Origin: Macrostomum lignano
Taxonomy: Eukaryota
NCBI GenBank assembly: GCA_002269645.1
Contig: NIVC01003078.1
Location: forward strand, 36,854-100,853
Length of the DNA stretch: 64,000 nt
Reading direction: 5' to 3'
Shown here: positions 1-58,574 of the stretch, piece by piece
Layout of the letters: each line of letters opens with the position of its first letter
Position numbering within the stretch: the stretch's first letter is position 1
Notes under the pieces: generated by a model
Databases searched by the model: none
What the model saw: the letters and a program-made list of their open reading frames with translations, nothing else
What the model was told of the DNA's origin: nothing
Made by a program: the position numbers and the translations under genes

Positions 1-114
1 CTCTGCCGCAGGAAATTTCCGTGGGAAACCACGGGCCTGTAGTGTGTAAACATAGCGCCTATGTAAATGCATTGGTGGACTCTGCGCAGGGAAAGCCATG
101 GAAATTCCATGGGG
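1..114 (+). repeat. Left terminal inverted repeat (truncated by window edge)
   Basis: ctctgccgcagg...ccatgggg matches the reverse complement of 16379-16493. Confidence 0.93.
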
Positions 115-261
115 CCTTAGTGAGAGAACATAGGCCTATGTTTTTCTATTGCTGTATGTCTGCTGCAGTGGTTTAGTCTATATAAGGACCAAAAAATCTC
201 TTTGATTCATGAAAAAACGATTTTTTTCGACGAGATAGTTTATTCTGTTAGATTTTAAGTC

Positions 262-1029
262 ATGGACATCGGCGAAGGATATAAACTCCAAATACAGGAG
301 TATGAAGGAGTTTATGTTCATTGCTATCAGAAAATTTTACCGACATGGCAGCACTGCGAGTTTGAAACCTGGAGTCCCCGGCTTCAATTTGAACATCCGT
401 CAGTGGGAGAAGCTCAAGGAGTTGAAGCGATCGCTTGTCAAGGCGGCCTTGGACAAACAGCCAAAGGTTGTCAAACTCGGCTTCGATAAGTTCATCGAAG
501 TGAAAAACGGCATTATCTGGTTAAAGCGATTGCCGGAGGACTGCTGCGACGAGTTTCTTAAGCGGAACACCGTGCCGCTGACACCGCCGCTGTGGCGAAA
601 GCTGTGGCAGTACGCGGATTGGATCGACGAGCAGCTATCGGCTCCACGTGAGATTTCCGATGTATACGAGCTGGAGTCGGGATCTTCCTCCAACAGCATC
701 GAAAATGAAGACGGTGCTGGCGAAAACGCGAAGAGACCAAGCCGGTAGTGAAGGCGGAGGACGATGCTCCTGCTGCTGCTGGCGATGTGGCTGGCATGCC
801 ATCCAATCTGCAAATCGACACAGCGTTTGCCACTTCAACGCCTCTGCAACTGACCAAGCCAGCAGCTGGAGCGATTCCTCGGCAGGACACTGATCTGCAA
901 GAGGACCCAGTCTGGTACCAGTTCCGAGCTCAAGCAGCCGCCGCTGAGAACGCCAGGAAACGCAAGCAGCCGCCGTTCGCTCTGCGCAGATTGGATGCCA
1001 TGAAGCTGCCCAGGCCGTGCTTCGACTGA
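262..1029 (+). CDS. Tandem PC4 (p15/Sub1-like ssDNA-binding/coactivator) domain protein with low-complexity C-tail; frameshifted at ~310 and probably ~737
   Basis: Joining ORF 262 (MDIGEGYKLQIQEYEG) to ORF 302 (FMFIAIRKFY...LKPGVPGFNLNIRQWEKLKE) gives the PC4 pattern (human [24 protein letters not shown]...[20 protein letters not shown]). A second weaker copy follows (LGFDKFIEV...VPLTPPLWRKL...IDEQL). ORF 748-1029 joins if one C is added at cc737-738. Confidence 0.72.
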
Positions 1030-1196
1030 TTGCAGACCCTCTGACATTGAGACAAACTCTGTGCTACGAGCTTTTATCCAGACCTGCTTTCCATCTCTTT
1101 GTTTGAAAATAAAAAATATATGCTTGCTTTCACATGCGCTATACATTTTCAATGTCTTAAGAAAACCTAAAAAAAAATGTTTCTTTGTTTCTGAAA

Positions 1197-2262
1197 ATGG
1201 AAAAAATTTATTTCAACCAAATCAGCCTGCGAGCTATTGCAGTTCTTCAAAACTGCAACCTGAACTGCGAAAAAGAGGCGAGCATATTGGAGTCAAGAGC
1301 ATTGAGCAGTGGCTAAGTCAGCAGCCAGTACACACTCTGCATAAGCCAGCTAGAGTACGATTTCCAAGGGCGCCAATAATAGTGAGGGCCATTGATGATC
1401 AGTGGGAGATGGATCTGGTGGAAATGATTCCGTTTGCAAAGTATAATCGCGGGCATAAATACATTCTCACCTGCATTGATGTTTTGTCTAAATTTGCAAT
1501 GGCCAGAGCACTGAAGTCTAAGAGCGCGGCAGAAGTGAAATCTGCGTTTGAGAGCATGCTGAAGAGCTCAAAGCGGCAGCCGCGCACTGTCCGCACAGAT
1601 CAGGGAAAGGAGTTTGTCAACGCAATTTTTCGCCAGTTCTGCATAGACCGGGGGATTCTGGCGTTTCCAACTAGCAGTGAGCACAAAGCAGCCATAATTG
1701 AAAGATGGAATCGAACTTTAAAAAGCAAGATGTGGCGTTACTTTACTCACAACAGCACTCTACAATGGCTTGATGTGCTGCCTAAACTGGTCAAGTCCTA
1801 TAACAATACTTTCCACAGAAGCATCAAGACTACACCAATGAATGTCAGCAAAGCAAACGAGACTGAAGTGTGGATGAACCTTTATGATGGGAAAGCGATT
1901 GAGACAGTTGAGAAACTGAGAAAACCGAAGTTCTGTGAAAACCAATCAGTGCGGATTTCCAATGCACCCAGACTCTTCAGGAAGGGATACAAGGCGAACT
2001 GGAGCGAGGAGGTGTACACCATAGTGTTTAGGGCACCAAAGCATTATCCCTACATGTACAGGATTCGAGACATGAAGGGGGAAGACATAGAGGCCTCTTC
2101 CACGAGCATGAGCTGCAAGCTGTTCCGGACTCGCAGCGGCTGTATGTAATCGAGAAGGTTCTGAAGACTGAGAAGCGGAAGGGAAAGATCCGATATCTCG
2201 TCAAGTGGGCCGGCTACAAGTCCACTGACTGGGTGGATGAGAAGGACTTAAGAAAAGTGTAA
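1197..2262 (+). CDS. Polinton retroviral-type (rve) DDE integrase with C-terminal chromodomain; -1 frameshifts at ~1218 and ~2098
   Basis: HTLHKPAR..F, catalytic QWEMDLV / RTDQGKEF / IIERWNRTLK, KGYKANWSEEVY. The shifted frame continues FHEHELQ...YVIEKVLKTEKRKGKIRYLVKWAGYKSTDWV (chromodomain) to TAA 2260-2262. The repaired start is MEKIYFN(P)NQPASY at ATG 1197. Confidence 0.93.
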
Positions 2263-2292
2263 GATACCGACATTGTGCAGCCATTCCCAACT

Positions 2293-3101
2293 ATGAGAAG
2301 CATCATCATTTGTAGCGAAAATGCTGAAGGTACTCCTAGTGACTTTCATTTTCACCTGCCTTCACTATTTACTTGGATCGAAATGTGGACTATGAGGCAG
2401 GTCTGGCTGAAATCCATCTGCCTGCTGCATGGTTCAATGTTGACGAGCCTTACTGCTTCACTGTCTCAGATGGAAGAGAGCATGAGGCCCTGGTTCTTCA
2501 ACCCGGACGCTTTGCTAGAGTGGAGGAACTGGTTGAGCGCATGAATGAGCTGCTGGCCAACTCTGAGTCACTGTTCTTCGATGCAATGAGCGAAAGGGAG
2601 TCTGAAATGGAAGCTGATGAGTCCGGTTTAATGGGGCGAAGCAGCGCTAGAGATATTGGCATAAAGTTTGAAATCCAAGAGTTGAGAACGGTAGTGCTCA
2701 ACAACACGGCTCGAGCAGAATTGTTCCTTCCATCAAGTAAAATTCTGCAGTGGCTGGGATTCGGAAACCAGCCTGTGAAGATCCCACCCGGACGGCAAGT
2801 GTCACTCTGCTGCATCGGTTGTCCGCCCACCAACCTGATCAACTTGCACTGCAGCATTGTGGAGCGAACAAACTGTAACTGGAACTCCGTGCTGCGAACT
2901 GTGAGCATGTCATCCGATGTCGAATGGGGCAGCTACATGAGCAAAGTGTTTAAGAAAGCAATATTCTTCCCGATTCAGAAAGCTAATTTTCTACATGGCA
3001 TTAGATTTCAACTGCGTGACATCTTTGGCTACTCACTGACTGCTCGGAGCAGCAGCCCTGTTCTGCTCACAGTTCATATTCGGGAAAGGCTAATACAATG
3101 A
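2293..3101 (+). CDS. Minor capsid protein (penton-like, single jelly roll); -1 frameshift at ~2360
   Basis: N-terminus TPSDFHFHLP-FTIYLD...YEAGLAEIHLPAAWFNV and C-terminus FFPIQK...IRFQLRDIFG...VLLTVHIR match Polinton minor capsid motifs; located between integrase and major capsid. Confidence 0.8.
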
Positions 3102-3508
3102 ACTACCAACAGCTGATTCGTCAGTATTCAGGGACTCTGGCAGGAAGCCAAAAGCCGGCGCTCTATGGCTGTGGGAGTTTTCCAGGAATCATGACTTACC
3201 AGCCTCCTCCAGAAGCTTCCACAAAGTCAATATCGCTATCAAAGCCAGGGCATACCACCGCCAGCGGTAGCAGCAGCAACAGCAGAAGCAATAGAAACAG
3301 ACCAAAGCAGCGACTAGTCAAACAGGGCAGTAAGAAGCAGACAAAAAAGAAGAAAAAGAGTAAGACGGAGAAATCACCGAAAAGAAGCCAGTCAGGGCGA
3401 AATAAACCTAAGAAAGGGAGGTCTAAAACTCAAAGCAAGAAAACAGGCAAAGGAAAGCAAAAAGTGAGCAAAAAGACTGTTAAACGTGTTCTGGACTCGC
3501 TCTCATAG
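3098..3508 (+). CDS. Highly basic (Lys/Ser/Arg-rich) putative virion core/DNA-condensing protein
   Basis: Very K-rich C-terminal half; ATGA overlap with the minor capsid stop; immediately upstream of the major capsid gene. Function is inferred. Confidence 0.6.
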   Translation: MNYQQLIRQYSGTLAGSQKPALYGCGSFPGIMTYQPPPEASTKSISLSKPGHTTASGSSSNSRSNRNRPKQRLVKQGSKKQTKKKKKSKTEKSPKRSQSGRNKPKKGRSKTQSKKTGKGKQKVSKKTVKRVLDSLS

Positions 3509-3510
3509 CA

Positions 3511-4793
3511 ATGGCTTACGGATTCAACCCGAGACTCGATTTGTTCAAGTCCCCCGTGCTGCAGACTGCCATTGAAAAATCCACATATGTTGATATTCAC
3601 CCCGTGAACTCTATTGCTACTAACTCACCTATTGAATTCGACTGTCATCCATCGGCTGATGAGTACACTGATCTGCTGAGCTCATTCCTGTATATTCGCT
3701 GTCGCCTAGTCCGGCTTGGCGGGGCTTTGATGAGGGAGGAGGTTCGAAATGCCGATGGAGTTGTCACTGAGCGCAGAGACAGTGGGGTGCACCCAGAAAA
3801 CTTTGTCCTGTCTACGGCATTCTCAGATGTAATCGTGAGCATCAACCAGCGCATTGTATCAGGTGGAGACCAGCTCTACCCCTACCATGCCTACCTAAAA
3901 GCTCTCATGAGCTCATCCGATGCTCAGCAGTTAAAGTTCTACCCCGCCGGATTCCTGGAACCCGAAACTGCTGCTGAGGGGCATGCCGAGAGACACAGGG
4001 AGTCCCGCTGGGTGGAGTATGCGGGACCACTGCTCAGCGACATTTTCCAGTGTCCTGTTCTGCTGCTGAACAATTTACACCTGCACATCAAGCTGATGCC
4101 CAGCGATACTGCATTCGCCATCCGAACCCCAGATGAGAACAACACAGCCTACCGAATGGAAATCTCCCACTGCATTCTGAACCTGCGCCGAGTCAAAGTG
4201 GCGCCTCACATCAGCCTGGCGCATGAGCAGGGACTGACCAATCAGAACGCACTTTACCCCATCGAGCGAACCGAAATGCAAAACTTTATTCTACCCAGGG
4301 AATTCAGTCAAAAAACATTGAAGGATTCACCCATGGCAAACTGCCGAAGTTCGTTATGCTGGTCTTCGTGAACCACCGAGCCTTCAATGGCCATCACCAT
4401 TCCAGCCCCTTCGAGTTCCAGAGCTTCAACCTCAGCCAGCTAGCACTAAAGAAAGGTGGTGAAGCCATGTGCCACGCTGCATTTGCACCTGAGAATAATT
4501 CATTCGTGAGAGAGTACTTGCACTACCTGAAAAGCTGTCAGTCAGCCAGCCCTACCAACTCGGTTCCGTGGGTCCCCTACCAGTTGTTCTCCAACGGCAA
4601 CACAGCTTTCGCATTCGATCTCACGCCTGAGGGAGCGGCCCTGTGGTACGGACAGAAGGAGGGCAATTTGCGGCTGGAGATTCGCTTCCGACAGGCCCTG
4701 GAGGAGCCTGTATCTCTGATTGTTATGTGCCTGTATGACTCACTGATTGAGGTCACCAAGCACAGGGAGATTCTGCTAGATTTTCCATCCTAG
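3511..4793 (+). CDS. Major capsid protein (double jelly roll, PY/hexon-like); -1 frameshift at A-run ~4310-4315
   Basis: LDLFKSPVLQTAIEKSTYVDIHP...PIEF...YTDL; YPYHAYL; KLPKFVMLVFVNHRAFNG...PFEFQ; FAFDLTP; GNLRLEIRF...SLIEV. All are typical Polinton MCP motifs. Confidence 0.92.
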
Positions 4794-4816
4794 GAGTACG
4801 CTGGCGCAACGCTAAT

Positions 4817-5329
4817 ATGGATGCTTTTCAACTGCTTAAACTGGCTAAAAGCTTTTTGCCACAAAATAACTGTTTAATTATTGTCTTGAATTCAATAAAT
4901 AAAACATCTTATGCTTTAAACTTTATTCAGCGAGCAACTCTCAAAAGAAATTTATCTCGATGTAAGTTTATTTTCTTTCTGCTTCAGTACAGCTCATCCT
5001 TCGGTCACTGGGTGGTTTGTTATGCTGATAAGGAGAATTCCATAGAACTCTTTAACTCTCTGGGCTGGGACTCCAGCACTTTAGAGATCATTCACAGAGC
5101 ACTGAAATCCTTTTGGTATTCTCCATTCTACTTACGTAGCAATGTGAATCGAATTCAGAGCTGCAACTCTGCTAAATGCGGTTTGTTCTGTCTCTTGTTT
5201 GCCTATCAAAAGTTTCGTTTCAAGCGCTCGTTTGAGTGGGTTCTGCGGCACCTCCATGCAAATCAGCAGAGCCACTTGAATGAAAGAATTCTGCAAAGGT
5301 TTGAGAGTTGCTTAAGAAAAAAAATTTAA
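4817..5329 (+). CDS. Adenain-like cysteine protease (virion maturation protease)
   Basis: GHWV (His), F[N]SLG, RIQS (oxyanion Gln), CGLFC (Cys); lies between MCP and ATPase. Confidence 0.85.
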   Translation: MDAFQLLKLAKSFLPQNNCLIIVLNSINKTSYALNFIQRATLKRNLSRCKFIFFLLQYSSSFGHWVVCYADKENSIELFNSLGWDSSTLEIIHRALKSFWYSPFYLRSNVNRIQSCNSAKCGLFCLLFAYQKFRFKRSFEWVLRHLHANQQSHLNERILQRFESCLRKKI

Positions 5330-5366
5330 TTAGATTTTAAAAATCAAGAATTTAGCTCAACAGGCA

Positions 5367-6020
5367 ATGGAAACACGTGAGCGGATAAACTGTTATGATG
5401 TGCGCCTGCGACAGGGAAGCTGCATGATTGTCAGCGGGCCTACAAATGCAGGAAAGACAACCTTCGTGAAACATCTGATACAATACAAGGATGTCATGTT
5501 TGATGTGAAGCCTGGGAGAGTTCTGTGGTACTACGGGATTTCACAAGCAGCACACTCTGAGCTCAGCAGTCTCGGCGTGCACCTGCAGCAGGGATTTCCC
5601 AGCAGTATCGAGACCGCACTGAGACCCAATGACCTGGTTGTATTTGATGACCTGATTGAAGAAACTTCCAATTCTGCTGCAATGCGAAATGTTTTCACTG
5701 GAATTGCCCATCATTTGCCCTGCTTTCTGGTTATGCTCACCCAAAATGTATTTTTTAAAGGGAAGGAGTTGCGAACAATGAGTCTGAATGCGATGTACTT
5801 TGTGATCATGAAGAACCCCAGAGACCAGCTGCAGATTGCAGCGCTGGGCAGGCAGTGCTTTGCTGAGAAGCCCGGCTTTCTGCTGTCAGTGTTCAAGCAC
5901 GTGACATCGCACGGCAGGGGAGCCTACCTGCTCCTGGATTTTCACCCTTCCACCCCTGATGAGCTGCGCGTCCGGGCTCGAATCCTGCCCAATCAGCGAC
6001 CCCACCTTGTTTACACTTAA
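5367..6020 (+). CDS. Genome-packaging ATPase (A32/FtsK-HerA superfamily)
   Basis: Walker A GPTNAGKT, Walker B LVVFDD, HH..C...LTQN, KNPRD, YLLLD.HP.T...LRVR. Confidence 0.95.
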   Translation: METRERINCYDVRLRQGSCMIVSGPTNAGKTTFVKHLIQYKDVMFDVKPGRVLWYYGISQAAHSELSSLGVHLQQGFPSSIETALRPNDLVVFDDLIEETSNSAAMRNVFTGIAHHLPCFLVMLTQNVFFKGKELRTMSLNAMYFVIMKNPRDQLQIAALGRQCFAEKPGFLLSVFKHVTSHGRGAYLLLDFHPSTPDELRVRARILPNQRPHLVYT

Positions 6021-6067
6021 GAATAACAGCCGAGATTTCGCCATTTGTTCTATATTCTGCAACACTA

Positions 6068-6384
6068 ATGATAATGGAAACCTTTGACTCACATGAAAGT
6101 TTGTTTATGTTCTCGCGTCACCGAAATATTCCATCAGCTTTAAACGTCTGTTGATCAGAGCGGGTCCAAAAGCCGTACGTGAATTTCTCATTGAGGCCTG
6201 CTACAACCTATTGCAAAACACTCTGTCGTTCTCACTCACTCAAAAGGCAGCGCTGGTGAAGCAAAAGCAAATAATCCGCAAAATTTCTACACATAGAAGA
6301 ACTGCGGATCTGCTAAATACGGGTTTTATCAAAATTCTCTACATTCTAATAAAGCTAGTGAAGAAAAAGAAGCAAAATGAATAA
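6068..6384 (+). CDS. Conserved small Polinton protein (PW-like class, label uncertain); -1 frameshift at ~6097
   Basis: FLIEACYNLL.N.L.....QK..L.K.K.IIRKI resembles the small ORF that usually follows the Polinton ATPase. Adding one A in gaaag extends the frame to ATG 6068. Confidence 0.6.
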
Positions 6385-7098
6385 GTTCTCAGAGATGGTT
6401 CTGATCCCCAAGTCAGAGTACGACATGCTCACACAGAATTTGAAGCCAGTCGAGTCTGAACTCGACACTGCTGTGAGATATGCGCAGAGGAAATGCAATG
6501 ATATTTTGCTTGCCGAGGATTGCCCAGACGATGTGAAAGCTGCCATGTACCATGATGCGATGAAGAGTTTGCTGGCCAAGCGCAAGCGGACTGGAAAGGA
6601 TGGTGCGGTACCTGCGAGTGATGCAAAGATGCTGAAAACAGATATTGCACCAGCAGCTGGGGGGAAAAGATCACCCAATCCGTGCCGCAGAAGTTTAAAG
6701 CGAGAGCCCGCAGTCTATGGGCCATCCTATCTGGCAATCCCTCTCTGATTCAGGTGTCCGAAAATGGCGAGGCGCAAATTTCTGGGAAGACAATACCCTC
6801 CTCAAACATCCTGGATTTGTTTCACAGTGCGGTGAGGGATTCGAAATGTGCCAACGAGCCGGTAGGCTGGAGTGAGTTTGTCTCATTGCTTCAAGACAAA
6901 AAGCTTAACATCCCAGCTTCGGCTATAGGAAAGTCAGTAAGGCAGCTAATTTCTAAACCGGCTGTTTCTCCAGAGGCCACCCCTGCACATCATACAGTTA
7001 AGGGATTCGGGAGTGGGAGAGCCTGGCTACAGCTGAGCAGGAAAAAAAACTATTTAAGAAGGGGAACTGAGTCGGCTTCCCGACATCTTGCGTCTTGA
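6377..7098 (+). CDS. Conserved Polinton hypothetical protein (PZ-like class, label uncertain); -1 frameshift at G-run 6659-6664
   Basis: N-terminal MVLIP and C-terminal GE..ISGKTIPSSNILDL...P.GW.EF...L...NIP.S.IG motif, typical of Polinton core ORFs. Confidence 0.7.
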
Positions 7099-7110
7099 AA
7101 CCATCCGATC

Positions 7111-7628
7111 ATGAACTATATTGACTTCCAAGGCTTCCCACGCGAGAGATCGAGCAGAGATTTCGTTGTGAAGGAGCTGGCCATTGCCCAAGTCCGGGCT
7201 GGCAGTTACCATATCACTCATCACGTGTACGCCTCTCCGTTCTCATGGGAGAGAATCTCACCTGAGATGCAAGTGCATTACAGAAAGCTCTCAAAGAATT
7301 TGCATCATTTCAAGTGGACAGATGGATCTCGACCGTACATGCATTTGGCAAATGACATTCTAAACATTGCTTACGGTCCCACCTGGACAAGCGGGGTGAA
7401 GAAGTCCATCTTTCTGACTGAGCTGCTTGGCAGACAGGTGTACAACCTAGAGGATCTGGGATCACCTTTGATTCAAGCATCTGATACTGGTTGCGCAGTG
7501 AAAAATGTATTACTGTACTACAACTGGCTGAAACCGAAGTTCTGTATCAACTTAAGAAGCGAGGTGTGCCCGCACCACTCAAAAGCTCGCAAAGACAGTA
7601 CCACAGGCAGAAAGGACTCTCTAAATGA
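7111..7628 (+). CDS. DEDD/DnaQ-like (RNase H fold) nuclease-family protein; probable -1 frameshift at ~7532, stop overlapping the TBP ATG
   Basis: IDFQGF...FVVKELAI...H.Y.SPF.W...LHHFKWTDGSRPY pattern. One extra A at aaa7531 gives WLKTEVLYQLKKRG...GLSK-TGA (7626-7628), an ATGA overlap with 7625. Confidence 0.55.
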
Positions 7629-8188
7629 GTACACCTGCGACAGCCCTGCGAGTGACCAATCTGGTCGGCGGCGTGGATCTGAGACTTGCTGGAGGCAGGG
7701 GTGCCCAATTGCCTCTGCGGGAACTGGCTCTCAGCATGGCTCATGTCATCTATCGTCCCGTCTGGCCCCGAGTGCTTATCAAGAGGATGCGGAATCCCAG
7801 AGTGACTCTATTGCTCTATCCGACTGGACAACTGAGTATCTGTGGCGCCCGGAGCTACTCGGCCTCAGTCAGGGCCGCTCGTCGCTTCGTGGCTATGCTG
7901 CATCGCAGAGTGCCTGCTCAACTGCTGCCTCATCAAGCTGTGCATGTGCGGATTAAAACTATTACTGCTCATGGGAAGATTGACTTGTGCAGAGCACTTC
8001 CCCTCGCTAATCTTGTAAACACTTTACCAAGTGCTCAATATGAGCCAGAATCATTTTCTGCTTTGATCTGCAAACTAAGCTTCTGCAAATGCCTGCTTTT
8101 TCACAATGGCTCATTTGTTCTCAGTGGTGCAAAAACAATGAGCATGCTAATTTCCGACTTTTCCTTGCTTGTCCGTTTTCTGTGCTAA
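7625..8188 (+). CDS. TATA-box binding protein (TBP)-like protein, core domain only, Polinton-encoded
   Basis: Two TBP half-repeats: VTNLVG..DL; YRPVWPRVLIKRMRNPRVTLLLYPTGQLSICGARS..SVRAARRF and QYEPESFSALICKL...CLLFHNGSFVLSGAK. These align to cellular TBP [36 protein letters not shown] and SYEPELFPGLIYRM...LLIFVSGKVVLTGAK. Confidence 0.9.
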   Translation: MSTPATALRVTNLVGGVDLRLAGGRGAQLPLRELALSMAHVIYRPVWPRVLIKRMRNPRVTLLLYPTGQLSICGARSYSASVRAARRFVAMLHRRVPAQLLPHQAVHVRIKTITAHGKIDLCRALPLANLVNTLPSAQYEPESFSALICKLSFCKCLLFHNGSFVLSGAKTMSMLISDFSLLVRFLC

Positions 8189-8907
8189 TAATAACCATAT
8201 GTTTCAACAATTAAATAAAAAGACGACAGCTGAACAAAAATATAATAATTTGCATGCATATACCACGTATTAAGATGCGTGCATTTTAATCAATATACCT
8301 GAAAATCAGACTTCGATCGACTTTTTCTTTATTTTCAAAACTGAAATCGCAATATTAGTTTGAGTATAGAAAATTTAATCAGACCACCACCAACTCAAGA
8401 AAAAAAGCACACCCATCACTCAGATTATGCACTGCTAAGACAAAAACGAACAAGAACTAGCAGAAATGAAAAAGGAAGCAAATATTTTTCAGATAATCAT
8501 TGGATAATGGTTACAAAAAATATGAGTAGCAAAGCTAGCAAAGATAAAAAAGGACAGTAACTCAGTTCATTCAATTGTGCAAAAATTCAAGGATAATAAA
8601 AAAGGGGAAAGCCAGACCAATATGCCGCAAATTATTCCAACATGGCTTTCACAAGTTCGTATTGAAATAAATCTGGAACAACTCAACTCGAAAATGTTAC
8701 GCTCAGTTAGTTGCTTAGAGACTACAAATATGTAACTAACTGAATTGGCTCTATTCGTTCCAGCATTGTCATTATCATCATCATCCATCATTATCATCAT
8801 CATCCATCATCATCATTCAGATTAATTAAACCACAGAAACAATTCATGGAGTACATAAGTAAAAGTCAATAAATTTCAACGCCAAGGTTACACAGATGTG
8901 CAAAGCA

Positions 8908-11900
8908 TCACTCTAAGCAGTCCGCTGTCCTTTTCGGACTACCCCTGATTAACAGCTGAAAGTGGCCGAACGGAAGACTTGAGTTCGAGCCAGTCCACGC
9001 TCGCTTGTCCTCCCAGATACTGAGAGCGAGCTTACGTTGCTCAATGGTGAAAACGCGATGTTTCTCACTTCCAATTCGACGAACAGTGAGCGACAGCTTT
9101 GAAGCCCCCTTGAAAATCTTGACATAGTCGTCGTGGGAGACTTCATTCTTCAGCACGCTTCGCTGGATGCCTTTTGCTTTTGCTTTGCATGCCGCCGAGC
9201 TTTCAGCGAGGAAAGAATAGAGCTTGGGCCTTAGCAGCACCCACTCAATCTGTTGCAGTCCACCAGCTTCATCTTTAATGCAGCCTAGCTTGGCCTTTAG
9301 CCGATTCGAGAAGAGAGGATGATTAGTGAAAAAATTGGAGGTGTCCAAGAGGCCTTCGGCATGCAGGATTGGCAGCACTTCTCTCTGCAAACTAAGGTTC
9401 TCTAAGCTCAAAAACAACGAGTCTGTATCGCCACCGCAAACTCGAACTCTTGCTCCATCACGGAATTCTAGCATGGGTTTTATTTTGTCATAGTAAAGTC
9501 GATACATGATGATCTTGGAGCGATCTAGAACACACTGCCCCATGAAGATTGGGCGATCAAGAGTTACTTCGTGCTTTTGAAGCTCAAAGATGCTGAGTGA
9601 CGGTGTAATGATTGTGAATGATGCGACATTTGGTTGAGAGAAACAGTCTTGGCTTTTTTCTTGTCAGTACACACTCTGATGTCCCGCCGCTTGCGCACGT
9701 TCTCCATTGTTTTGCCAAACAGGAGTTATTTTTCAGTTTATAGAAATCCTTCTCGAAATCATTTTTCGCCATAGAGCGCTTCTCGCTATTCATCTTAATG
9801 TAGTCCGCGAAGACAGGTTCTTGCCTGAATTCGATCATCCTGTGGAGCCCATGCAACTTCATTCCGTGCGATAGATAGAATCGGAGAGCAGACGAGTGCA
9901 GTACATAGGAAAACTTGTTGTGGCATGTGAGCATTAATTTTTGTACTCCACGGTAGCGCGCAACGGTAGGATTCTCAGTCGTGTTCGCGTCGGGCTGCTG
10001 CTGCTGATGATGATGAGAATGATCATTGTCATGTTGAAGCAGTACCCATAATTCTCGCATGTACTGCGGAAATTCTTCGAAATTCGGACACCTTTTCTCT
10101 GGGGCGAATGGAAGATCCTCCGTTGCCGTGTGGATTTCGGCTGGGTAGAGCAAATCCGCTTCGACAAGGTAGCCGATTGGAGCGTCATCATCCAGGGAAA
10201 GAAAGCGGCACTCGGACCAGGAGCACAGCTCCTCTTGACTGAGCCAGCGAAAGCCGCCAACAGGTAGGGGCATTGTGAGCGCATGACCATAAAGGTTATT
10301 AGCATCAACAGCCAGTAAACTCCTACCTGCTGGTTCATTATCATCATCACTACTTTCGCTCTGGACATGATGTACATTGACAAAAGACATTCCACCCCGA
10401 ATTCCTTTCTCAAACATTTTATACATCTCGAGGTCAGTTAGCAGTTCGATCTTGACTTGAGAAGACTTTAGTGCAGAAGCGAATGATAAGCCTGGAGTTG
10501 ACACAAAATGCACCGGATCTAGCTTGTCTTCCTGCAAACTCAGCCTTCGAAACCCTTCAAAGATATCTGCTAGTTGCCTGATGTCCAGCTCCAAGTAGCA
10601 GAGATGTAATCGCGCAATGTTGTAGATTCGAATTCAGTCCAGGCCTTCTGCGCATGCCGATACTCCGCCTCGGTACAGTGGCTGTTGGTGAGTCGGTTAA
10701 AAAAGCTTTCTACTTTTGGTAGTTGGCGATCATCAAGCACATTTAAATTCGAGAGATAATCATACGGGAAAACTCCCTTACTAAACAGTACATCGCTTGA
10801 GAGATTTGGATACTTTGATCGCATCGCATTAGTGATGGGACAGTTGTCCTCCGGCAAGTTCTTAATAAGTTGAGAGAGACTGCTGTGTAGGAATTGCAGT
10901 GAGTCGATGAATTGTAGCGTGAAAAACAGGGGCTTTTTTACGCCATCTTTCTCATACTCATCAATCTGGAACTCGACCCTCATGGAGAGGTACGACTCAG
11001 CAGTTTGGGGGATGACGCTCACCCTCCAACCAGTCATGTCACCCAGCGCAGTTGAGAAAATCAAATGCAGGTCATATCCGCGAAGATTGTGGAAAACTAT
11101 TGGCAAAAATCGCCGTTTCAGCCGAGCAAGCTTGTTACACGAAGCGCAGGCAGCACCCTTGTATTCACCGCTGAGGTGGTCGTGATCCCAGTGCTTGTCA
11201 GAAGATGAAATGAACACTGCATTGCATAAATAGCACTGTGTGGCATCTTGAAAGCTGCGCCTGTTGTCATCACTGTTTCTGTCAGCAATCTGATGACTAA
11301 ACTCGGTATTCCAACCATAAACTTCACGAGCAAGACGTTCGAGTGAGGCCAAAAACTGTTTCACGACAGAATTCGGATTGGGTCCGCTGCAGAGGAAAAC
11401 ATCCTCACTCGGCCTCAGAATTTTGCTGCTCATACCCTCTCTTGGAATAACAATGTAGCCAGCAGCTACAGGTACATGCTCAGTTAACTTGGTGACAGTA
11501 ACTTCTCTTTCAGGCTTCACTGGTTCACGTGGGGTGTTCAGAGCTTCAAAATCTGCGTAGACAACAAATGGGGGACTGATTGTCTTTTCCCAAGCCATGA
11601 ACTGCATTGTGTTGCTACTTGCATCAGGCATGCGCTCCATGATGGCTGGTTTCAGTTGAGGATTGCAGCTGTCTCGATGCTGCTCCAACTCTTCCTGGAA
11701 TCGAAACGGAGAAATGCACTTCTCACACCATTTGCGATTCCTCAGACCTTTTTTGCTGTTCAGGAGCCGGTCCAGGTTCGAAACTGCACACCAGTGTCCA
11801 GTCCCACAATTCTCATCACCACCATCATCATCATCAGCATCATCGGAGCTGGAGTTGCGAAGCAAGAGTAGAGGAATAACCTTGCGAGAGGCACAAATCC

Positions 11901-12764
11901 CAGGAAGAGGCTGGCGAATGACATAGGCCTCATCATCTTCCCAGCTAAAAACTGTGAAACAGATTTCGGAATTATTTTCCTCTATAACGTCTAAATCGGA
12001 AATTGCGACTGGTAGTGCGATGCACTACCAGTTACAGCAGATTATCGATCTGCTGTAACTGGATAGTGCACGATAGTGTTACTCGATTACAGCAGATTAT
12101 CGATCTGCTGTAATCGATCAACTTACAGCAGATCGATTTCATCCAACCATCTGCTGTAAGTTGTTAGTCGATGGCAGGACTTCATCACACCTGGATCTCT
12201 GATGTGCAGGTAAGCGAGACAGGCAAACAGAAAGCAATTGTTTCCATCGCTCGGTGGGTTGATTATGGCCTTCTTAACGGCCAGCTGATTGGGCAAAGAA
12301 AAATTCGCGCATCGTCCACGATAGTAGCGAATGCGATCAGTGAGGGCAGAGCACAGATCAAAATAGTTGATTTGCTCAACTATCCAACCGCTCCCATTTG
12401 AATTGTAGGCATCAATCTTGCGTTCCAGCTCAGAAAACTGCTGCAACCACCACAATTCAAAATCTCTTAGATCAGAGAGAAGCTCAAGACCGCATGCGAT
12501 CCACTTATCTTCTGCATTGATTACCGCAGCTTCCTTGATTCTCACCATTCTGATGTTGAACTTGAGCTGCGCTCGAATAGAATTATTCTCGGATGAATCG
12601 AATCTCATCTCAACAGCCTGTAGCACTGCAAACTTCGTTGATGATAAAAAATGAAATGGCTCGAGATCTCTTGATGCTGGAGTGAAGCGTCTGACCTGCA
12701 GCGTGTCATCATGCGCACTAGCGTGAATAGCCGAGCTGAATTGAATGCCTGCATGAATTAGCAT
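8908..12764 (-). pseudogene. polB: Protein-primed family B DNA polymerase (with endonuclease VII-like insert), interrupted by a 101-bp insertion (12024-12124) and -1 frameshifts at ~10603, ~9718 and ~9642
   Basis: ExoI VVYADFE, HWDHDHLSGEYKGAACASCN (endo VII), FHNLRGYD, FIDSLQF, KGVFPYDY, IRGG, motif A DANNLYG, motif B KLKNNSC(FG)K, motif C GDTDS, LRPKLYS, KAKGI. The four fragments join into one frame after repair. Confidence 0.93.
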
Positions 12765-12839
12765 GTTGTTGGGTGTACGCGTTTCACTCGGCAGTTAAAA
12801 TTTATAAATCATAATCCTAATTCCACCTCATTATGGTGC

Positions 12840-13797
12840 GGGAATCGGTTAATCAGGAATCAGTGAATCAGGAATCAGTGAATCGGGAATCGGCGAATCA
12901 GGAATCGGTGAATCAGGAATCGGCGAATCGGGAATCGGTGAATCGGGAATCGGCGAATCGGGAATCGGTGAATCGGGAATCGGCGAATCGGGAATCGGTG
13001 AATCGGGAATCGGCGAATCGGGAATCGGTGAATCGGGAATCGGCGAATCGGGAATCGGTGAATCGGGAATCGGCGAATCGGGAATCGGTGAATCGGGAAT
13101 CGGCGAATCAGGAATCGGTGAATCGGTAATCAGTGAATCAGGAATCGGGAATCAGTGAATCGGGAATCGGTGAATCGGGAATCGGTGAATCGGGAATCGG
13201 TGAATCGGGAATCGGCGAATCAGGAATCGGTGAATCGGTAATCAGTGAATCAGGAATCGGGAATCGGTGAATCAGGAATCGGTGAATCAGGAATCGGCGA
13301 ATCGGGAATCGGTGAATCGGGAATCGGCGAATCGGGAATCGGTGAATCGGGAATCGGCGAATCGGGAATCGGTGAATCGGGAATCGGCGAATCGGGAATC
13401 AGTGAATCGGGAATCGGCGAATCGGGAATCGGTGAATCGGGAATCGGCGAATCGGGAATCGGTGAATCGGGAATCGGCGAATCGGGAATCGGTGAATCGG
13501 GAATCGGCGAATCAGGAATCGGTGAATCGGTAATCAGTGAATCAGGAATCGGGAATCAGTGAATCGGGAATCGGGAATCGGGAATCGGTGAATCGGCGAA
13601 TCGGGAATCGGTGAATCGGGAATCGGTGAATCGGTGAATCGAGAATCAGTGAATCGGTGAATCGAGAATCAGTGAATCGGTGAATCGGCGAATCGGGAAT
13701 CGGTGAATCGGCGATTCGGGAATCGGTGAATCGGGAATCAGTGAATCGGTGAATCGGTGAATCGGGAATCGGTGAATCGGCGAATCGGGAATCGGGT
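12840..13797. repeat. Tandem array of GAATC-based 15-bp units (GGGAATCGGTGAATC / GGGAATCGGCGAATC; 30-bp dimer) inside the Polinton
   Basis: Directly visible; produces the spurious RESVN/ESGIG ORFs. Confidence 0.97.
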
Positions 13798-14502
13798 TTC
13801 GTGACTACTTTTGCTTGTATTTATAGAGGGAAGAGTCTACTTTACTGGCTTTACTAATCACATTGGATTGACTCACTGGTTGGTTCGATTTCGATAGCAA
13901 AATTGGTAGACTCAAGCGGCCGATCACTTGCTGATGATGATGATGAAGTGTCTCTCGAAGAAGCCATCTCGGTTCGGTTGATGACACGGCTTAGAGCATT
14001 TTCGATGAGAATTAGAGGAGGAAATTTGCTGAAATACATATTTGTGAAATTATTTTTTCTTGCAAAAGTAAATTCAAATCCCTAATTTGTGGATATACGC
14101 TCGTATTAAGTGTACATATTTTCGAAAGTTGTACTTCGGGTCTTGTCGTTACGTGCCAAATTTCGGGGTCTCATAAAGGGTTTAATAAAAGGGTCTTATG
14201 AAACGAATTCTAAAAATTCAAAATAACTCAAAGCTGAAAACTTTTCCAAAATTCTGCGCTTCATTGCGCTTTAAAACTTATATTTTAAAAATGCAATGAT
14301 ACGCTACATTATTAGAAGCACAAGTTAAAGAAGGAGATTACAAACCCAACCAGAATCAAACCCAATCTGCATTCACACCCAAGCACAGCTTGCAATTGAT
14401 CAACGCGCACTGCCTGACGGATAATCATGCATCTCGCAATTTAATTCAACACAAAATGTTGCTAAATTAATATTTAACGACTGGTACATTAGAATTATTA
14501 GT

Positions 14503-15414
14503 TTAGAATTGAGAATTGCTCAGGCGAATACGGAAAGCCCCTCCCAAGTCAATCCAATATTCACCCGTAACACTGTTGGGCAGAACCAGCTGGATGCAGA
14601 GAGGTGCTGGCTGCTGCACTTCATTAGCGGCCGCAGGCTGAACCTCAGTCGGTGGCGGCGGTGGTGGAGGCGCAGGGCCTGAGTCCATATCGCGAATCAG
14701 GTCGGACAGGCTGACTTCGACCGCAGGCTGAACCTCAGTCGGTGGCGGCGGTGGTGGAGGCGCAGGGCCTGAGTCCATATCGCGAATCACGTCGGACAGG
14801 CTGACTTCTGCCACCATCCTGGCACGCTCCATATTTTTTCCGGGAACAGGGATTGCACGCCGCTGCTGCTGCTGTTGCATTTCTTGCTGCTCCTGTGCTT
14901 CAGGCTCACCATCGAGGTTCTCGAAGAAAGCGGTGTCCAGCTCATTCAGCTCGAAGTCAGGGGTGCCACCTCCATCAGCAGCATCAAGCAGGGGAGCTCC
15001 CACATCACCGTCGAGTAGAGCAGCAGAAGCAGCAGCAGGCTGGGCGTTGGGCTGGTCACCAGTGTTCGTTGATCGGCCGCATAAGCTCGTGATAACTTGA
15101 CTCAAAGTGCTCACCGGCTCTCGAATGCGTTCTGCCGCCCTGTTGCGTTCCTCTTGACGTGCAACTTCCAGAGCAGTAATGCGTGCCTGCTCGCGGTCCT
15201 CAGCAGAGCTCCAGTTAACAGTCGAATGATTTTTATGCCTTTTGATTTGGCCTCTAACGGTGAAGAGCTCAACGGACTGGCATTCATGGCATAGTAGCCA
15301 TCGGGTGACACTGCAGCCTTCATTCGCTACATGGTGCTTTAGTCCACCGAGCATACTAATATTGCAGGTGACACACACCTCATGAACGTAGGATGGGCAC
15401 CGAGAATGGCTCAT
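14503..15414 (-). CDS. Polinton accessory protein: N-terminal Cys/His putative Zn-binding region, then acidic, Gln-rich and duplicated Pro-rich segments
   Basis: Uninterrupted 303-aa GC-rich ORF in AT-rich flanks; CVTC...HH...CHEC...HKNH; DFELNELDTAFFENL; 90-bp tandem duplication at 14631-14808. Confidence 0.65.
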   Translation of the reverse strand: MSHSRCPSYVHEVCVTCNISMLGGLKHHVANEGCSVTRWLLCHECQSVELFTVRGQIKRHKNHSTVNWSSAEDREQARITALEVARQEERNRAAERIREPVSTLSQVITSLCGRSTNTGDQPNAQPAAASAALLDGDVGAPLLDAADGGGTPDFELNELDTAFFENLDGEPEAQEQQEMQQQQQRRAIPVPGKNMERARMVAEVSLSDVIRDMDSGPAPPPPPPPTEVQPAVEVSLSDLIRDMDSGPAPPPPPPPTEVQPAAANEVQQPAPLCIQLVLPNSVTGEYWIDLGGAFRIRLSNSQF

Positions 15415-16378
15415 GGTTTAAAATTTAATCAAGGGTTTTTTGTGAAAATTTGAAATTTCGAAGTCCGTTTAAATATCAACAAAATCTATTTTTAATGGCT
15501 CAGTAGAAGTTTTCAGTCCTTATATTCAAATCACCAGGCAATATCGCCTATATACACACACAGATATGTTTACACGTTACATATGTGTATGCACTAATTA
15601 TTTTCTTACCGTTATTGAACGATAATAATAATAAAACTGATAACATTCCCCCCGTCGCGTGCATCAGATAGTTCTAAAGACCTCCACCCCAGACCTGCAC
15701 CCCACTTCCCCGCGGCCAAATCAGCAGTATCAAGAAAAACAATAACAAGGCAATAAACGGCTCTTTGCAAGCTCACTTTCACAACAAATTCAGTCCAATT
15801 TGCGAGACTCGTACAAAAGTGCGGAGGAACTCATGAACATAGGCCTATGTATTCCCACTGCCAACAAAGTTTAAATATTGTGGAGATCGGAAGCCAGGTT
15901 CACCCAATTCTCAATTAATTATGGCTAATGTACACTAGAGAAGTTTTTTACTATTTTTAGAGAATCAGTTTTGGGCTTCCCAGGAACTTATGCTGCTTTC
16001 CCCGCGGCAGAGTCCACCAATCCATTTACATAGAGCTCTATTCGGCTTTTCATTGAAGATCGAGTAGGAAAATGAAAAGCGTCGAATTTTTCTATTCTAT
16101 TTTTGTCTACTTCTTAAAGGATAAAAACATGTCTATCTAAAATCTAGAAACTAGTATTCTTTTTGAAATGTTTGAAATGTTATTTCAAATTCGTCCTTTC
16201 GTTTCTATAGAAATACGACAAAGAATCGAGAAAATTTCTCGAACCGAATTCCAGAATCGGATCACGGTTCTGGAACCGAATATGAAGACGGAACAGACAA
16301 TATGAAAAGCTTCGAACCGATTCTGGTTCTGGAATCGGTAATATGAAAAGCCCGTATATTTCGCTCTCCGACCCCCCC

Positions 16379-16513
16379 CCCCATGGAAATTCCGTGGCTT
16401 TCCCTGCGGCAGAGTCCACCAATGCATTTACATAGGCGCTATGTTTACACACTACAGGCCCGTGGTTTTCCCACGGAAATTCCTGCGGCAGAGTCCACAT
16501 TTCCCCTACTACT
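16379..16513 (-). repeat. Right terminal inverted repeat (~135 bp)
   Basis: Matches 1-114 and ends in TACTACT; contains two copies of CCTGCGGCAGAGTCCAC (16403-16419, 16482-16498). Confidence 0.93.
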
Positions 16514-17845
16514 AACTGTAGTTAGATCTGGTCCAGGCTCCATTCCGATGGAAAACCCAAGGGACGTACATACGCTCGTAATTGTCTATAGGGCTCCAAG
16601 TTTAGATTTTTTCATGGAGTTAAGATAGATGTATCATCGACAATCTTAAGAAAATTTGCTAAGTTGCTTGCTAAAATTCGCTCTGCTCCGGAAGCATTTG
16701 CTTAAACCTTGTAAATCAACTAATGACAAAGCACATAATTACGTCCTTTTGGAGGTCCAGAAGGTGAGATTTTGACAGTTTAGTGCAATTGAAGGTGATT
16801 TATTTACGGTTCGTGAGGATGAGGTTAAAACTGTAGCCTACGCTTTGTGATTCAGTTTTTGCTTGATCAGCAAAGCTATAGAGAAATTGTCAACAGGGAG
16901 TCGCCTGGTGTCACCCGTTGAAGAGTGCCGACGGCATCGGGGTGATGATGAATGCTTGAATTGACAGCAGACTTTTTAAGCATACATAGCAGTTGGCGCT
17001 TGCCCATTGTCGAAGCTTGATCCGATACATCTGCTAGATAACTTCGCAATAGGGTGTCCATATAGTCACCTCGAAAGAAATTTTCTGGGGGGGGATTCCC
17101 GGTATTTCTACTGTTACAAAGGTAATGGTCGATTTCTTCCGAAATAGTGTTCTATATCGAAGTAATAAATTATCCCAATAACAATTGTTTCGTGTCAGAA
17201 AATGTGACTCAACTTTTTAAAAATCTATCGTAAGCTAAAATGGTTATGCTCTTTTTAAAAGCACCATCTTCCATATAAAAAAACTTATTTCTGAGTTCTT
17301 TTAGAACGATAAAGACTTCTAACATTCACAAAAACATTTTGCTGGTCTCAAACTACGACTAATTATTGGAACAAATAAATAAACGACATGCGATTATTGT
17401 ATTTAGTGGAGAGCAGCAGTTTCAGTTTCCAACCACAGACGAGTCTCGGTAAAGTTTAGCGCCTTATTTCTTTGGAAAAATATCTTTGGTTTGTTTTATT
17501 TGCAACAGCTAACTGGGCTGTCACGAATTTAAATAAAAAATAAGATTTCTCACAACACCGGTCTTTTTGTCTTGTATACCATACCCTCTGATCGCGATTC
17601 TTACGAAGTCACAAAACCCAACAATTGAAATTCGTGCCATAGAACTGGAAAGTCTAAAAAAACTCTATTCGAATATATTTTTGTTAAAACTGTGTCGAAA
17701 TTGCGTGTTTTAATTAATTGCAGGAAAACGCCGTTCAATATAACAGTTCTTGAATTGGTGCTTTCTTGAAATTCCAATGGTTCTATAATGTCTTACAATA
17801 CATGGAGTACAATTACAATTTATCTCTCTTAATCTTGTTCCACAG

Positions 17846-58165: not shown

Positions 58166-58574
58166 AGTATTGGTTTTGTCAGCCTAACTGAGAATAAAGC
58201 CATCCAAAGTGAGAATCCTGCCTACGCTGACTGCGAAGGGCCTGGCTGCGTGCAGCCTTAGTCTATGGGCCATAGACTATAAAGGACAAGCAAAGTGATA
58301 AAAAGCCATCCAATGTGAGAATCCTGCCTACGCTGAATACGAAGGGCCTAGCTGCGTCCAGCCTAGTCTATGAGCCATAGACTATAAAGGACAAGCAAAG
58401 TTTTAAAAGACCAATCGATTCTCACATTGGATGGCTTTTTATCACTTTGCTTGTCCTTTATTGTCTATGGCCCATAGACTAAGGCTGCACGCAGCCAGGC
58501 CCTTCGCCGTAAGCGTAGGCAGGATTCTCACTTTGGATGGCTTTGTTCTCAGTTGGGCTGACAAAACCAATACT
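58166..58574. mobile_element. Foldback MITE-like element with ~158-bp TIRs
   Basis: 58166-58323 is near-identical to the reverse complement of 58417-58574; flanks GAAACA / AAAACA. Confidence 0.8.

What the first reader, a model, noticed from the sequence alone, without database searches (positions are those of the whole stretch)
12008..12139. Nested snap-back palindromes: 101-bp templated insertion inactivating pPolB
Seen: three stacked hairpins. ACTGGTAGTGC-gat-GCACTACCAGT (12008-12032); a ~22-bp stem TGCACTACCAGTTACAGCAGAT-tatcg-ATCTGCTGTAACTGG(A)TAGTGCA (12021-12070); and CGATTACAGCAGAT-tatcg-ATCTGCTGTAATCG. All are built from inverted copies of the two flanks. Deleting exactly 12024-12124 rejoins EIDLL-CIALPVAISDLDVIEENN in frame with the downstream PolB ORF. 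Inference: iterative template-switch/foldback synthesis at a break (Pol theta-type templated insertion, or slippage by the viral polymerase). This is likely a real biological lesion, unlike the homopolymer indels.
Basis: seen in the sequence. Interest (0 to 1): 0.7.

Follow-up and report, generated by a model that had tools for sequence, protein, structure and literature searches.

The report
Repair scar in flatworm virus-like element
One copy of a virus-like jumping element in a flatworm carries a real 105-base patch, written by a repair polymerase that kept folding back and copying the DNA next to a break; this is a known kind of repair scar, unusually long and legible, and nothing suggests it has a function.

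Summary
The hairpins are real (fold z = -10.3; 5 of the window's 6 perfect hairpins with stems of 11 bp or more). They lie in the pPolB gene of a Polinton/Maverick of Macrostomum lignano. All 4 sibling proteins and all 4 runs laid show the uninterrupted form. One run also holds the left junction and the whole patch without a mismatch, at about 1/11 of that depth; the right junction is not bridged. Each broken end snapped back on its own flank (2- and 5-nt primers). One end then re-primed about a dozen times on its own product, and the ends met at a newly made 5-nt microhomology. This fits synthesis-dependent end joining (SD-MMEJ/TMEJ). Pol theta is the likeliest enzyme (~0.65) but is not shown. 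Known kind, long example, low interest. The scan noted similar scars on other DNA before (e1-7273018, e1-7930009, e1-7591757).

The parts
1..16512 (.). Polinton/Maverick copy; its left end lies just before the window
   Evidence: Terminal inverted repeats 1-85 / 16409-16493; right end reads AGTAGT on the minus strand; integrase, adenain-type protease and PolB genes
12123..12794 (-). pPolB gene, piece upstream of the lesion; its stop codon lies in the first templated tract
   Evidence: ORF list; 96-99% identity to 4 M. lignano records; sibling match ends at 12129
10570..12024 (-). pPolB gene, piece downstream of the lesion, with an endonuclease VII-like stretch
   Evidence: (PF02945, E 2.6e-07)
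8908..10633 (-). pPolB gene, two further pieces in different frames (9584-10633, 8908-9663)
   Evidence: 2204 relatives at E <= 0.001, about 50 of the 120 listed carry PF03175 (hand count)
12024..12128 (.). The lesion: 105-nt templated patchwork in place of a few native letters
   Evidence: Joint in 4 of 4 runs; X2 record 13 holds 11994-12129 with no difference
12008..12032 (+). Left-end snap-back: native 2-nt primer (12022-12023 on 12017-12018), 3-nt loop, 9 new bases 12024-12032
   Evidence: exact match, next template base not followed
12119..12163 (-). Right-end snap-back: native 5-nt primer (12129-12133 on 12149-12153), 15-nt loop, 10 new bases 12128-12119
   Evidence: exact match, next template base not followed
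12083..12119 (-). Unit 1: four further inverted re-primings on flank and own product (primers 1, 2, 1 and 3 nt; tracts 7, 13, 4 and 12 nt)
   Evidence: minimal parse; exact checks. The 4-nt tract could be chance or untemplated.
12058..12082 (-). Middle patch: direct (in trans) copy of the left flank 12008-12018 with one extra base, a repeated 7-mer, and short pieces that cannot be assigned safely
   Evidence: parses disagree here
12028..12058 (-). Unit 2: exact 27-nt repeat of unit 1 (12032-12058 = 12087-12113, same loop orientation), then snap-back on itself to 12028
12028..12032 (.). 5-nt overlap of the last tracts of both ends: inferred joining microhomology, made by synthesis on both sides
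   Evidence: equal-cost split points include 12027-12032

Best explanation
[quoted passage not shown] Shown in sequence: the left end's first 9 new bases and the right end's first 10 are exact inverted copies of their own flanks, primed by native 2- and 5-nt matches; later tracts copy earlier ones; the last tracts of the two ends overlap by 5 nt; a few native letters are lost. Inferred: the order of events (the right end re-primed about a dozen times, once or twice across the break on the left flank), a break as the trigger, and the enzyme. The product is an inert scar that stops the reading frame of this copy's pPolB.
For: Siblings uninterrupted: 4 of 4 proteins and 4 of 4 runs from 4 studies. 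Patch present in short-read contigs of 1 of 4 runs, no mismatch, depth 16.8 against 186.3. Minimal parse of 16 steps against 39.0 +/- 4.2 (100 shuffles) and 38.9 +/- 4.7 (100 element stretches), lowest control 29; with slips allowed 14 against 32.1 and 31.0, lowest 23. No 14-mer of the patch elsewhere in the window. Primers of 1-5 nt and loops of 3-15 nt lie in the published range: 90% of primers 3 nt or less, loops mostly under 10 and up to 29, primers within 30 bp of the break (PMC9303309, passages). Pol theta starts stem-loop synthesis from two base pairs, whereas Pol delta and RB69 exo- do not extend ssDNA (PMC11292364, passages). It switches between cis, trans and untemplated modes (PMC4912351, passages). 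Complex multi-round inserts are known in flies (PMC2895639, passages).
Against: The enzyme cannot be read from sequence: Pol eta and Pol lambda also extend stem-loops, and yeast, which lacks Pol theta, makes 5-34-bp fold-back inserts with Pol delta (PMC11724301). 105 nt is far above the 7-bp median, with over 25 bp only occasional. In C. elegans snap-back is a minor class and 16 of 17 complex inserts used one flank only (PMC5068794); here both flanks serve. The right template ends 35 bp from the join, past a 30-bp criterion (PMC5728401). About 25 nt in the middle have no unique parse. The right junction is covered by one letter only, three runs show no contig over the patch, and X2 may be the sample behind the assembly. 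A POLQ gene in this worm was not checked.
Confidence: 0.65

Rival explanations
1. Real scar, but written by another host route: Pol delta/eta/lambda fold-back synthesis at a break, or repeated template switching at a stalled fork (MMBIR/FoSTeS type).
For: Pol delta-dependent fold-back inserts in yeast; Pol eta and lambda extend stem-loops; the sequence names no enzyme.
Against: The yeast local inserts are described as 5-34-bp inverted duplications, and the complex ones seen in the passages have two fragments; here there are about 14 steps, several with 1-3-nt primers, as described for Pol theta.
Confidence: 0.17
2. Artefact of library preparation or assembly.
For: Seen in 1 of 4 runs; that contig ends in adapter letters one base past the patch; the run may be the assembly's own sample. 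Library chimeras form at inverted repeats (PMC10908179, passages).
Against: The window joins both flanks, and a short-read contig matches 136 letters without difference at mean depth 16.8. The published chimeras are read-end (soft-clipped) events at pre-existing repeats, while the native flanks fold weakly (-3.4 and -3.9 kcal/mol) and the patch needs about 14 steps. Contigs drop rare variants, so absence in three runs proves nothing.
Confidence: 0.08
3. The element's own protein-primed polymerase wrote the patch on a single-stranded replication intermediate before this copy integrated.
For: The lesion lies in a self-replicating element; nothing seen fixes its time relative to integration.
Against: B-family enzymes tested did not extend ssDNA by stem-loop; both ends were extended, as at a two-ended break; no second such cluster in the element; low depth fits one or few copies.
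Confidence: 0.06
4. A tiny mobile element, a new intron, or a transposon excision footprint.
For: Hairpin-rich; a GTAAGT hexamer lies near the 5' end of the patch on the coding strand. An excision could have made the break.
Against: Both ends are copies of this site's own flanks, so it is not a mobile unit; no second copy in the window; native letters are lost rather than duplicated; the patch's ends are not GT-AG, and the uninterrupted form stands in DNA-type runs.
Confidence: 0.04

Closest known systems
SD-MMEJ / polymerase theta-mediated end joining with templated insertions (PMC5728401, PMC9303309, PMC4912351, PMC11292364, PMC2895639, PMC5068794)
   Same: Small deletion plus insert copied from the flanks; snap-back and in-trans tracts; 1-5-nt primers; short loops; join at a newly made microhomology.
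   Different: 105 nt and about 14 steps against a 7-bp median; almost wholly snap-back; both ends extended; one 27-nt unit made twice; natural genome, no genetics on the enzyme.
Pol delta-dependent fold-back inverted insertions at breaks in yeast (PMC11724301)
   Same: Microhomology-primed inverted copy of the flank at a break.
   Different: Short (mostly 5-34 bp), favoured by RPA or resection defects; no long chain of re-priming in the passages read.
Polinton/Maverick (adintovirus-like) elements (PMC8502044)
   Same: PolB, integrase, protease, terminal inverted repeats, TBP-like gene.
   Different: This copy's genes are in pieces; capsid genes not confirmed by a family hit.

Membership tests
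SD-MMEJ/TMEJ templated insertion | Insert copied from DNA flanking the break | tested here: met
   75 of 105 bases in 7-mers matching a flank, 98 of 105 with self-copies; parse 16 against 39 steps in controls
SD-MMEJ/TMEJ templated insertion | Primer repeats within 30 bp of the break ends (PMC9303309) | tested here: met
   left primer at 12017-12018, right primer at 12149-12153
SD-MMEJ/TMEJ templated insertion | [quoted passage not shown] | tested here: inconclusive
   left 16 bp, right 35 bp; the rule was not made for multi-step inserts
SD-MMEJ/TMEJ templated insertion | Short primers (1-6 nt) and short loops | tested here: met
   primers 2, 5, 1, 2, 3 nt for the first long tracts; loops 3, 15, 9, 5, 5 nt; some 4-nt tracts have no primer
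SD-MMEJ/TMEJ templated insertion | Final join at a microhomology | tested here: met
   5-nt overlap 12028-12032 under the two-ended reading; depends on that reading
SD-MMEJ/TMEJ templated insertion | Small deletion beside the insert | tested here: met
   a few native letters lost, 4 of 4 runs
SD-MMEJ/TMEJ templated insertion | Dependence on polymerase theta | not testable with these tools
   needs genetics or biochemistry
SD-MMEJ/TMEJ templated insertion | Host encodes POLQ | not tested
   no genome held; none of the 15 papers listed names Macrostomum; wide presence in animals is recalled
Polinton/Maverick | Protein-primed PolB | tested here: met
Polinton/Maverick | Retrovirus-like integrase | tested here: met
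   PF00665, E 2.9e-16
Polinton/Maverick | Terminal inverted repeats with AG...CT ends (end motif recalled) | tested here: met
   only the right end lies in the window
Polinton/Maverick | Adenain-type protease | tested here: met
   PF00770, E 6.3e-05
Polinton/Maverick | Packaging ATPase and capsid proteins | tested here: inconclusive
   P-loop ORF 5334-6020 has weak hits only; no capsid family hit in Pfam or PHROGs
Polinton/Maverick | 6-bp target-site duplication (recalled) | not testable with these tools
   left end outside the window; no genome held

The most novel reading that the evidence does not exclude
The patch was written by the Polinton's own machinery (its protein-primed polymerase, perhaps at a cut made by the endonuclease VII-like domain) through a sequence-programmed chain of snap-backs that ran the same path twice. 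Polintons would then mutate themselves by a fold-back route not found in my searches, and their copies would be rich in such scars.
Probability: 0.06. Interest if true: 0.6.

Novelty: new member of a known kind. Interest (0 to 1): 0.25.

Why it matters
Little by itself: one scar in one broken copy of a multi-copy element. Its use is as a worked natural example. The sibling copies give the state before the break, so the multi-step path can be read almost base by base, and published SD-MMEJ software did not model multi-step inserts (PMC9303309). It suggests Pol theta-type repair in a flatworm genome and shows one way in which endogenous Polintons are silenced. It would matter more if such scars proved specific to Polintons.

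Tried and rejected
No genome is held, so copies could not be counted or scanned for other scars. No RNA holder is on record; X4 is RNA by guess only, so nothing is said on expression. X11, X1 and X4 show no contig over the patch; contigs drop rare variants, so this is no evidence of absence. Single-copy depth of the runs is unknown, so 16.8: 186.3 is not a copy number. PDB sequence search with 9587-10633: 0 hits. Pfam gave no PolB hit on the window's own pieces; the name rests on relatives and a weak PHROG hit. A one-ended reading from the left costs 21 steps against 16 from the right or from both ends: rejected. A one-ended reading from the right ties at 16 but needs a skipped base or an unprimed last tract: less favoured, not excluded. 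A pre-existing native hairpin was rejected: the flanks alone fold weakly. Paper searches: M. lignano + Polinton gave 1 paper, unrelated by title and start of abstract; none of the 15 of 241 listed holds the word Polinton; 12 of 398 listed gave nothing on this element. Earlier notes on this genome: none. PMC7454005 and PMC12153051 (passages) added background only. No supplements were read; figure supplements on long inserts in PMC4912351 and S7 Fig of PMC5068794 (legend seen only) may bear on how rare this length and the snap-back share are. Whether the frame can be reopened was left open.

Full report
Setting. Window 1-16512 is a Polinton/Maverick. It has terminal inverted repeats at 1-85 and 16409-16493, a right end reading AGTAGT inward, an rve integrase, an adenain-type protease and a TBP-like gene, and a minus-strand PolB gene in at least four pieces. 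The piece 9587-10633 has 2204 relatives at E <= 0.001, and about 50 of the 120 listed carry PF03175 (hand count). The piece 12126-12794 matches four UniRef records of Macrostomum lignano at 96-99% identity, so the host is this flatworm and the family is young. No genome is held.

Observation. Two more (12099-12137 and 12119-12163) and an exact 27-nt direct repeat were missed. The stretch folds far better than chance: z = -10.26, 0 of 200 shuffles as good. It holds 5 of the 6 perfect hairpins with stems of 11 bp or more in the window and is the best-folding of 210 windows of the element.

State before the lesion. All 4 sibling proteins read straight across the site. In contigs of 4 runs from 4 studies laid on 11501-12700, all 4 show one joint that skips 12024-12128 with a few other letters in its place. 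The lesion is therefore a deletion-plus-insertion of 105 nt. It is not a spliced segment: the letters are replaced, the ends are not GT-AG, and the joint stands in a DNA-type run. No other indel was listed in these 1200 bases, and 8 positions differ between copies.

Is the patch real? Run X2 holds a 155-nt contig that matches 11994-12129 with no difference, at depth 16.8 against 186.3 for the uninterrupted form. It covers 30 letters of the left flank and the whole patch, then ends in adapter letters (named as such from memory) one base into the right flank. Arithmetic on the depth bins shows no other X2 contig over the right junction and none over the patch in X11, X1 or X4. Contigs drop rare variants, and X2 may be the sample behind the assembly. 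I put the chance of an artefact at about 0.08: library chimeras are described at read ends and at pre-existing repeats (PMC10908179, passages), while the native flanks fold weakly and this patch needs many steps.

Anatomy. With the flanks kept apart, the smallest parse takes 16 steps (14 if slips are allowed), against 39 (31-32) in 100 shuffles and 100 element stretches; the lowest controls were 29 and 23. The exact tracts are as follows. The left end folds on a 2-nt match with a 3-nt loop and adds 9 bases. The right end folds on a 5-nt match with a 15-nt loop and adds 10. It then re-primes on 1, 2, 1 and 3 nt to add 7, 13, 4 and 12 bases, each an inverted copy of flank or of fresh product. 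A middle patch of about 25 nt holds a direct copy of the left flank with one extra base and a repeated 7-mer; its parse is not unique. The 27-nt unit then recurs with its loop in the same orientation, either by the same priming path run again or by one direct copy, and snaps back on itself. That last tract and the left end's tract overlap by 5 nt at 12028-12032, and each departs from its template just past the overlap. This is what a join at a newly made microhomology looks like. The listed tracts of 7 nt or more cover 87 of 105 bases. The patch has stops in all three coding-strand frames. The copy has other frame breaks that I did not test, so this may not have been the first hit.

Comparison with what is known. 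I saw passages found by term search for every paper cited, section 17 of PMC11292364 in full, and no supplements. The anatomy matches SD-MMEJ: snap-back, loop-out and in-trans synthesis from short primers near the break, ending at a nascent microhomology (PMC5728401; PMC9303309). Pol theta primes stem-loops from two base pairs where Pol delta and RB69 exo- do not (PMC11292364), switches between modes within one product (PMC4912351), and is tied to complex inserts in flies (PMC2895639). Against a firm assignment: Pol eta and lambda can do the same reaction; yeast makes fold-back inserts with Pol delta (PMC11724301); the median Pol theta insert is 7 bp; in C. elegans snap-back is minor and complex inserts mostly use one flank (PMC5068794); and one template ends 35 bp from the join. 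It works like a TMEJ scar and meets the sequence criteria I could test, one of them inconclusively. Enzyme dependence was not testable.

Novelty. A new and long member of a known kind. Searches listed no paper on such a scar in a Polinton; the library lacks most subscription journals. Three earlier notes of this scan describe similar scars on other DNA; I read them after forming this view and did not check them. The boldest reading left open is that the element's own polymerase wrote the patch (about 0.06). Interest 0.25.

Noticed in passing
window 7625-8188 (+): TBP-like ORF inside the Polinton (PF00352, E 1.6e-21). TBP-like genes are already listed for related elements in a figure legend of PMC8502044.
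   Followed up: partly
window ~12750-13876 (-): Intron-like stretch of about 1.1 kb in the 5' part of the pPolB gene, filled with a GAATCG-type tandem array. Sibling model P0003 jumps from 13875 to 12752; donor-like and acceptor-like motifs lie at the edges. No RNA proof.
   Followed up: partly
window 12121-12126 (-): The first snap-back tract creates a GTAAGT splice-donor-like hexamer on the coding strand; probably coincidence.
   Followed up: partly
window 15979-16033: Partial inner copy of the terminal repeat, about 380 bases inside the right end.
   Followed up: no
window 1-135 vs 16355-16515: The two terminal repeats differ partly by one-base shifts in short runs, which may be sequencing errors; several element genes are split across frames.
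   Followed up: no
window 14620-14810: Repeated proline-rich unit in ORF 14503-15417; its number varies among sibling records (2 copies in P0001, about 8 in P0004).
   Followed up: no
window 58166-58574: 158-nt inverted repeat, 97% matched, with an internal repeated module, set in satellite DNA; looks like a fold-back or MITE-type element.
   Followed up: no
window 25337 onward: Long 24-nt-period tandem array and many other satellites fill much of the window outside the element.
   Followed up: no
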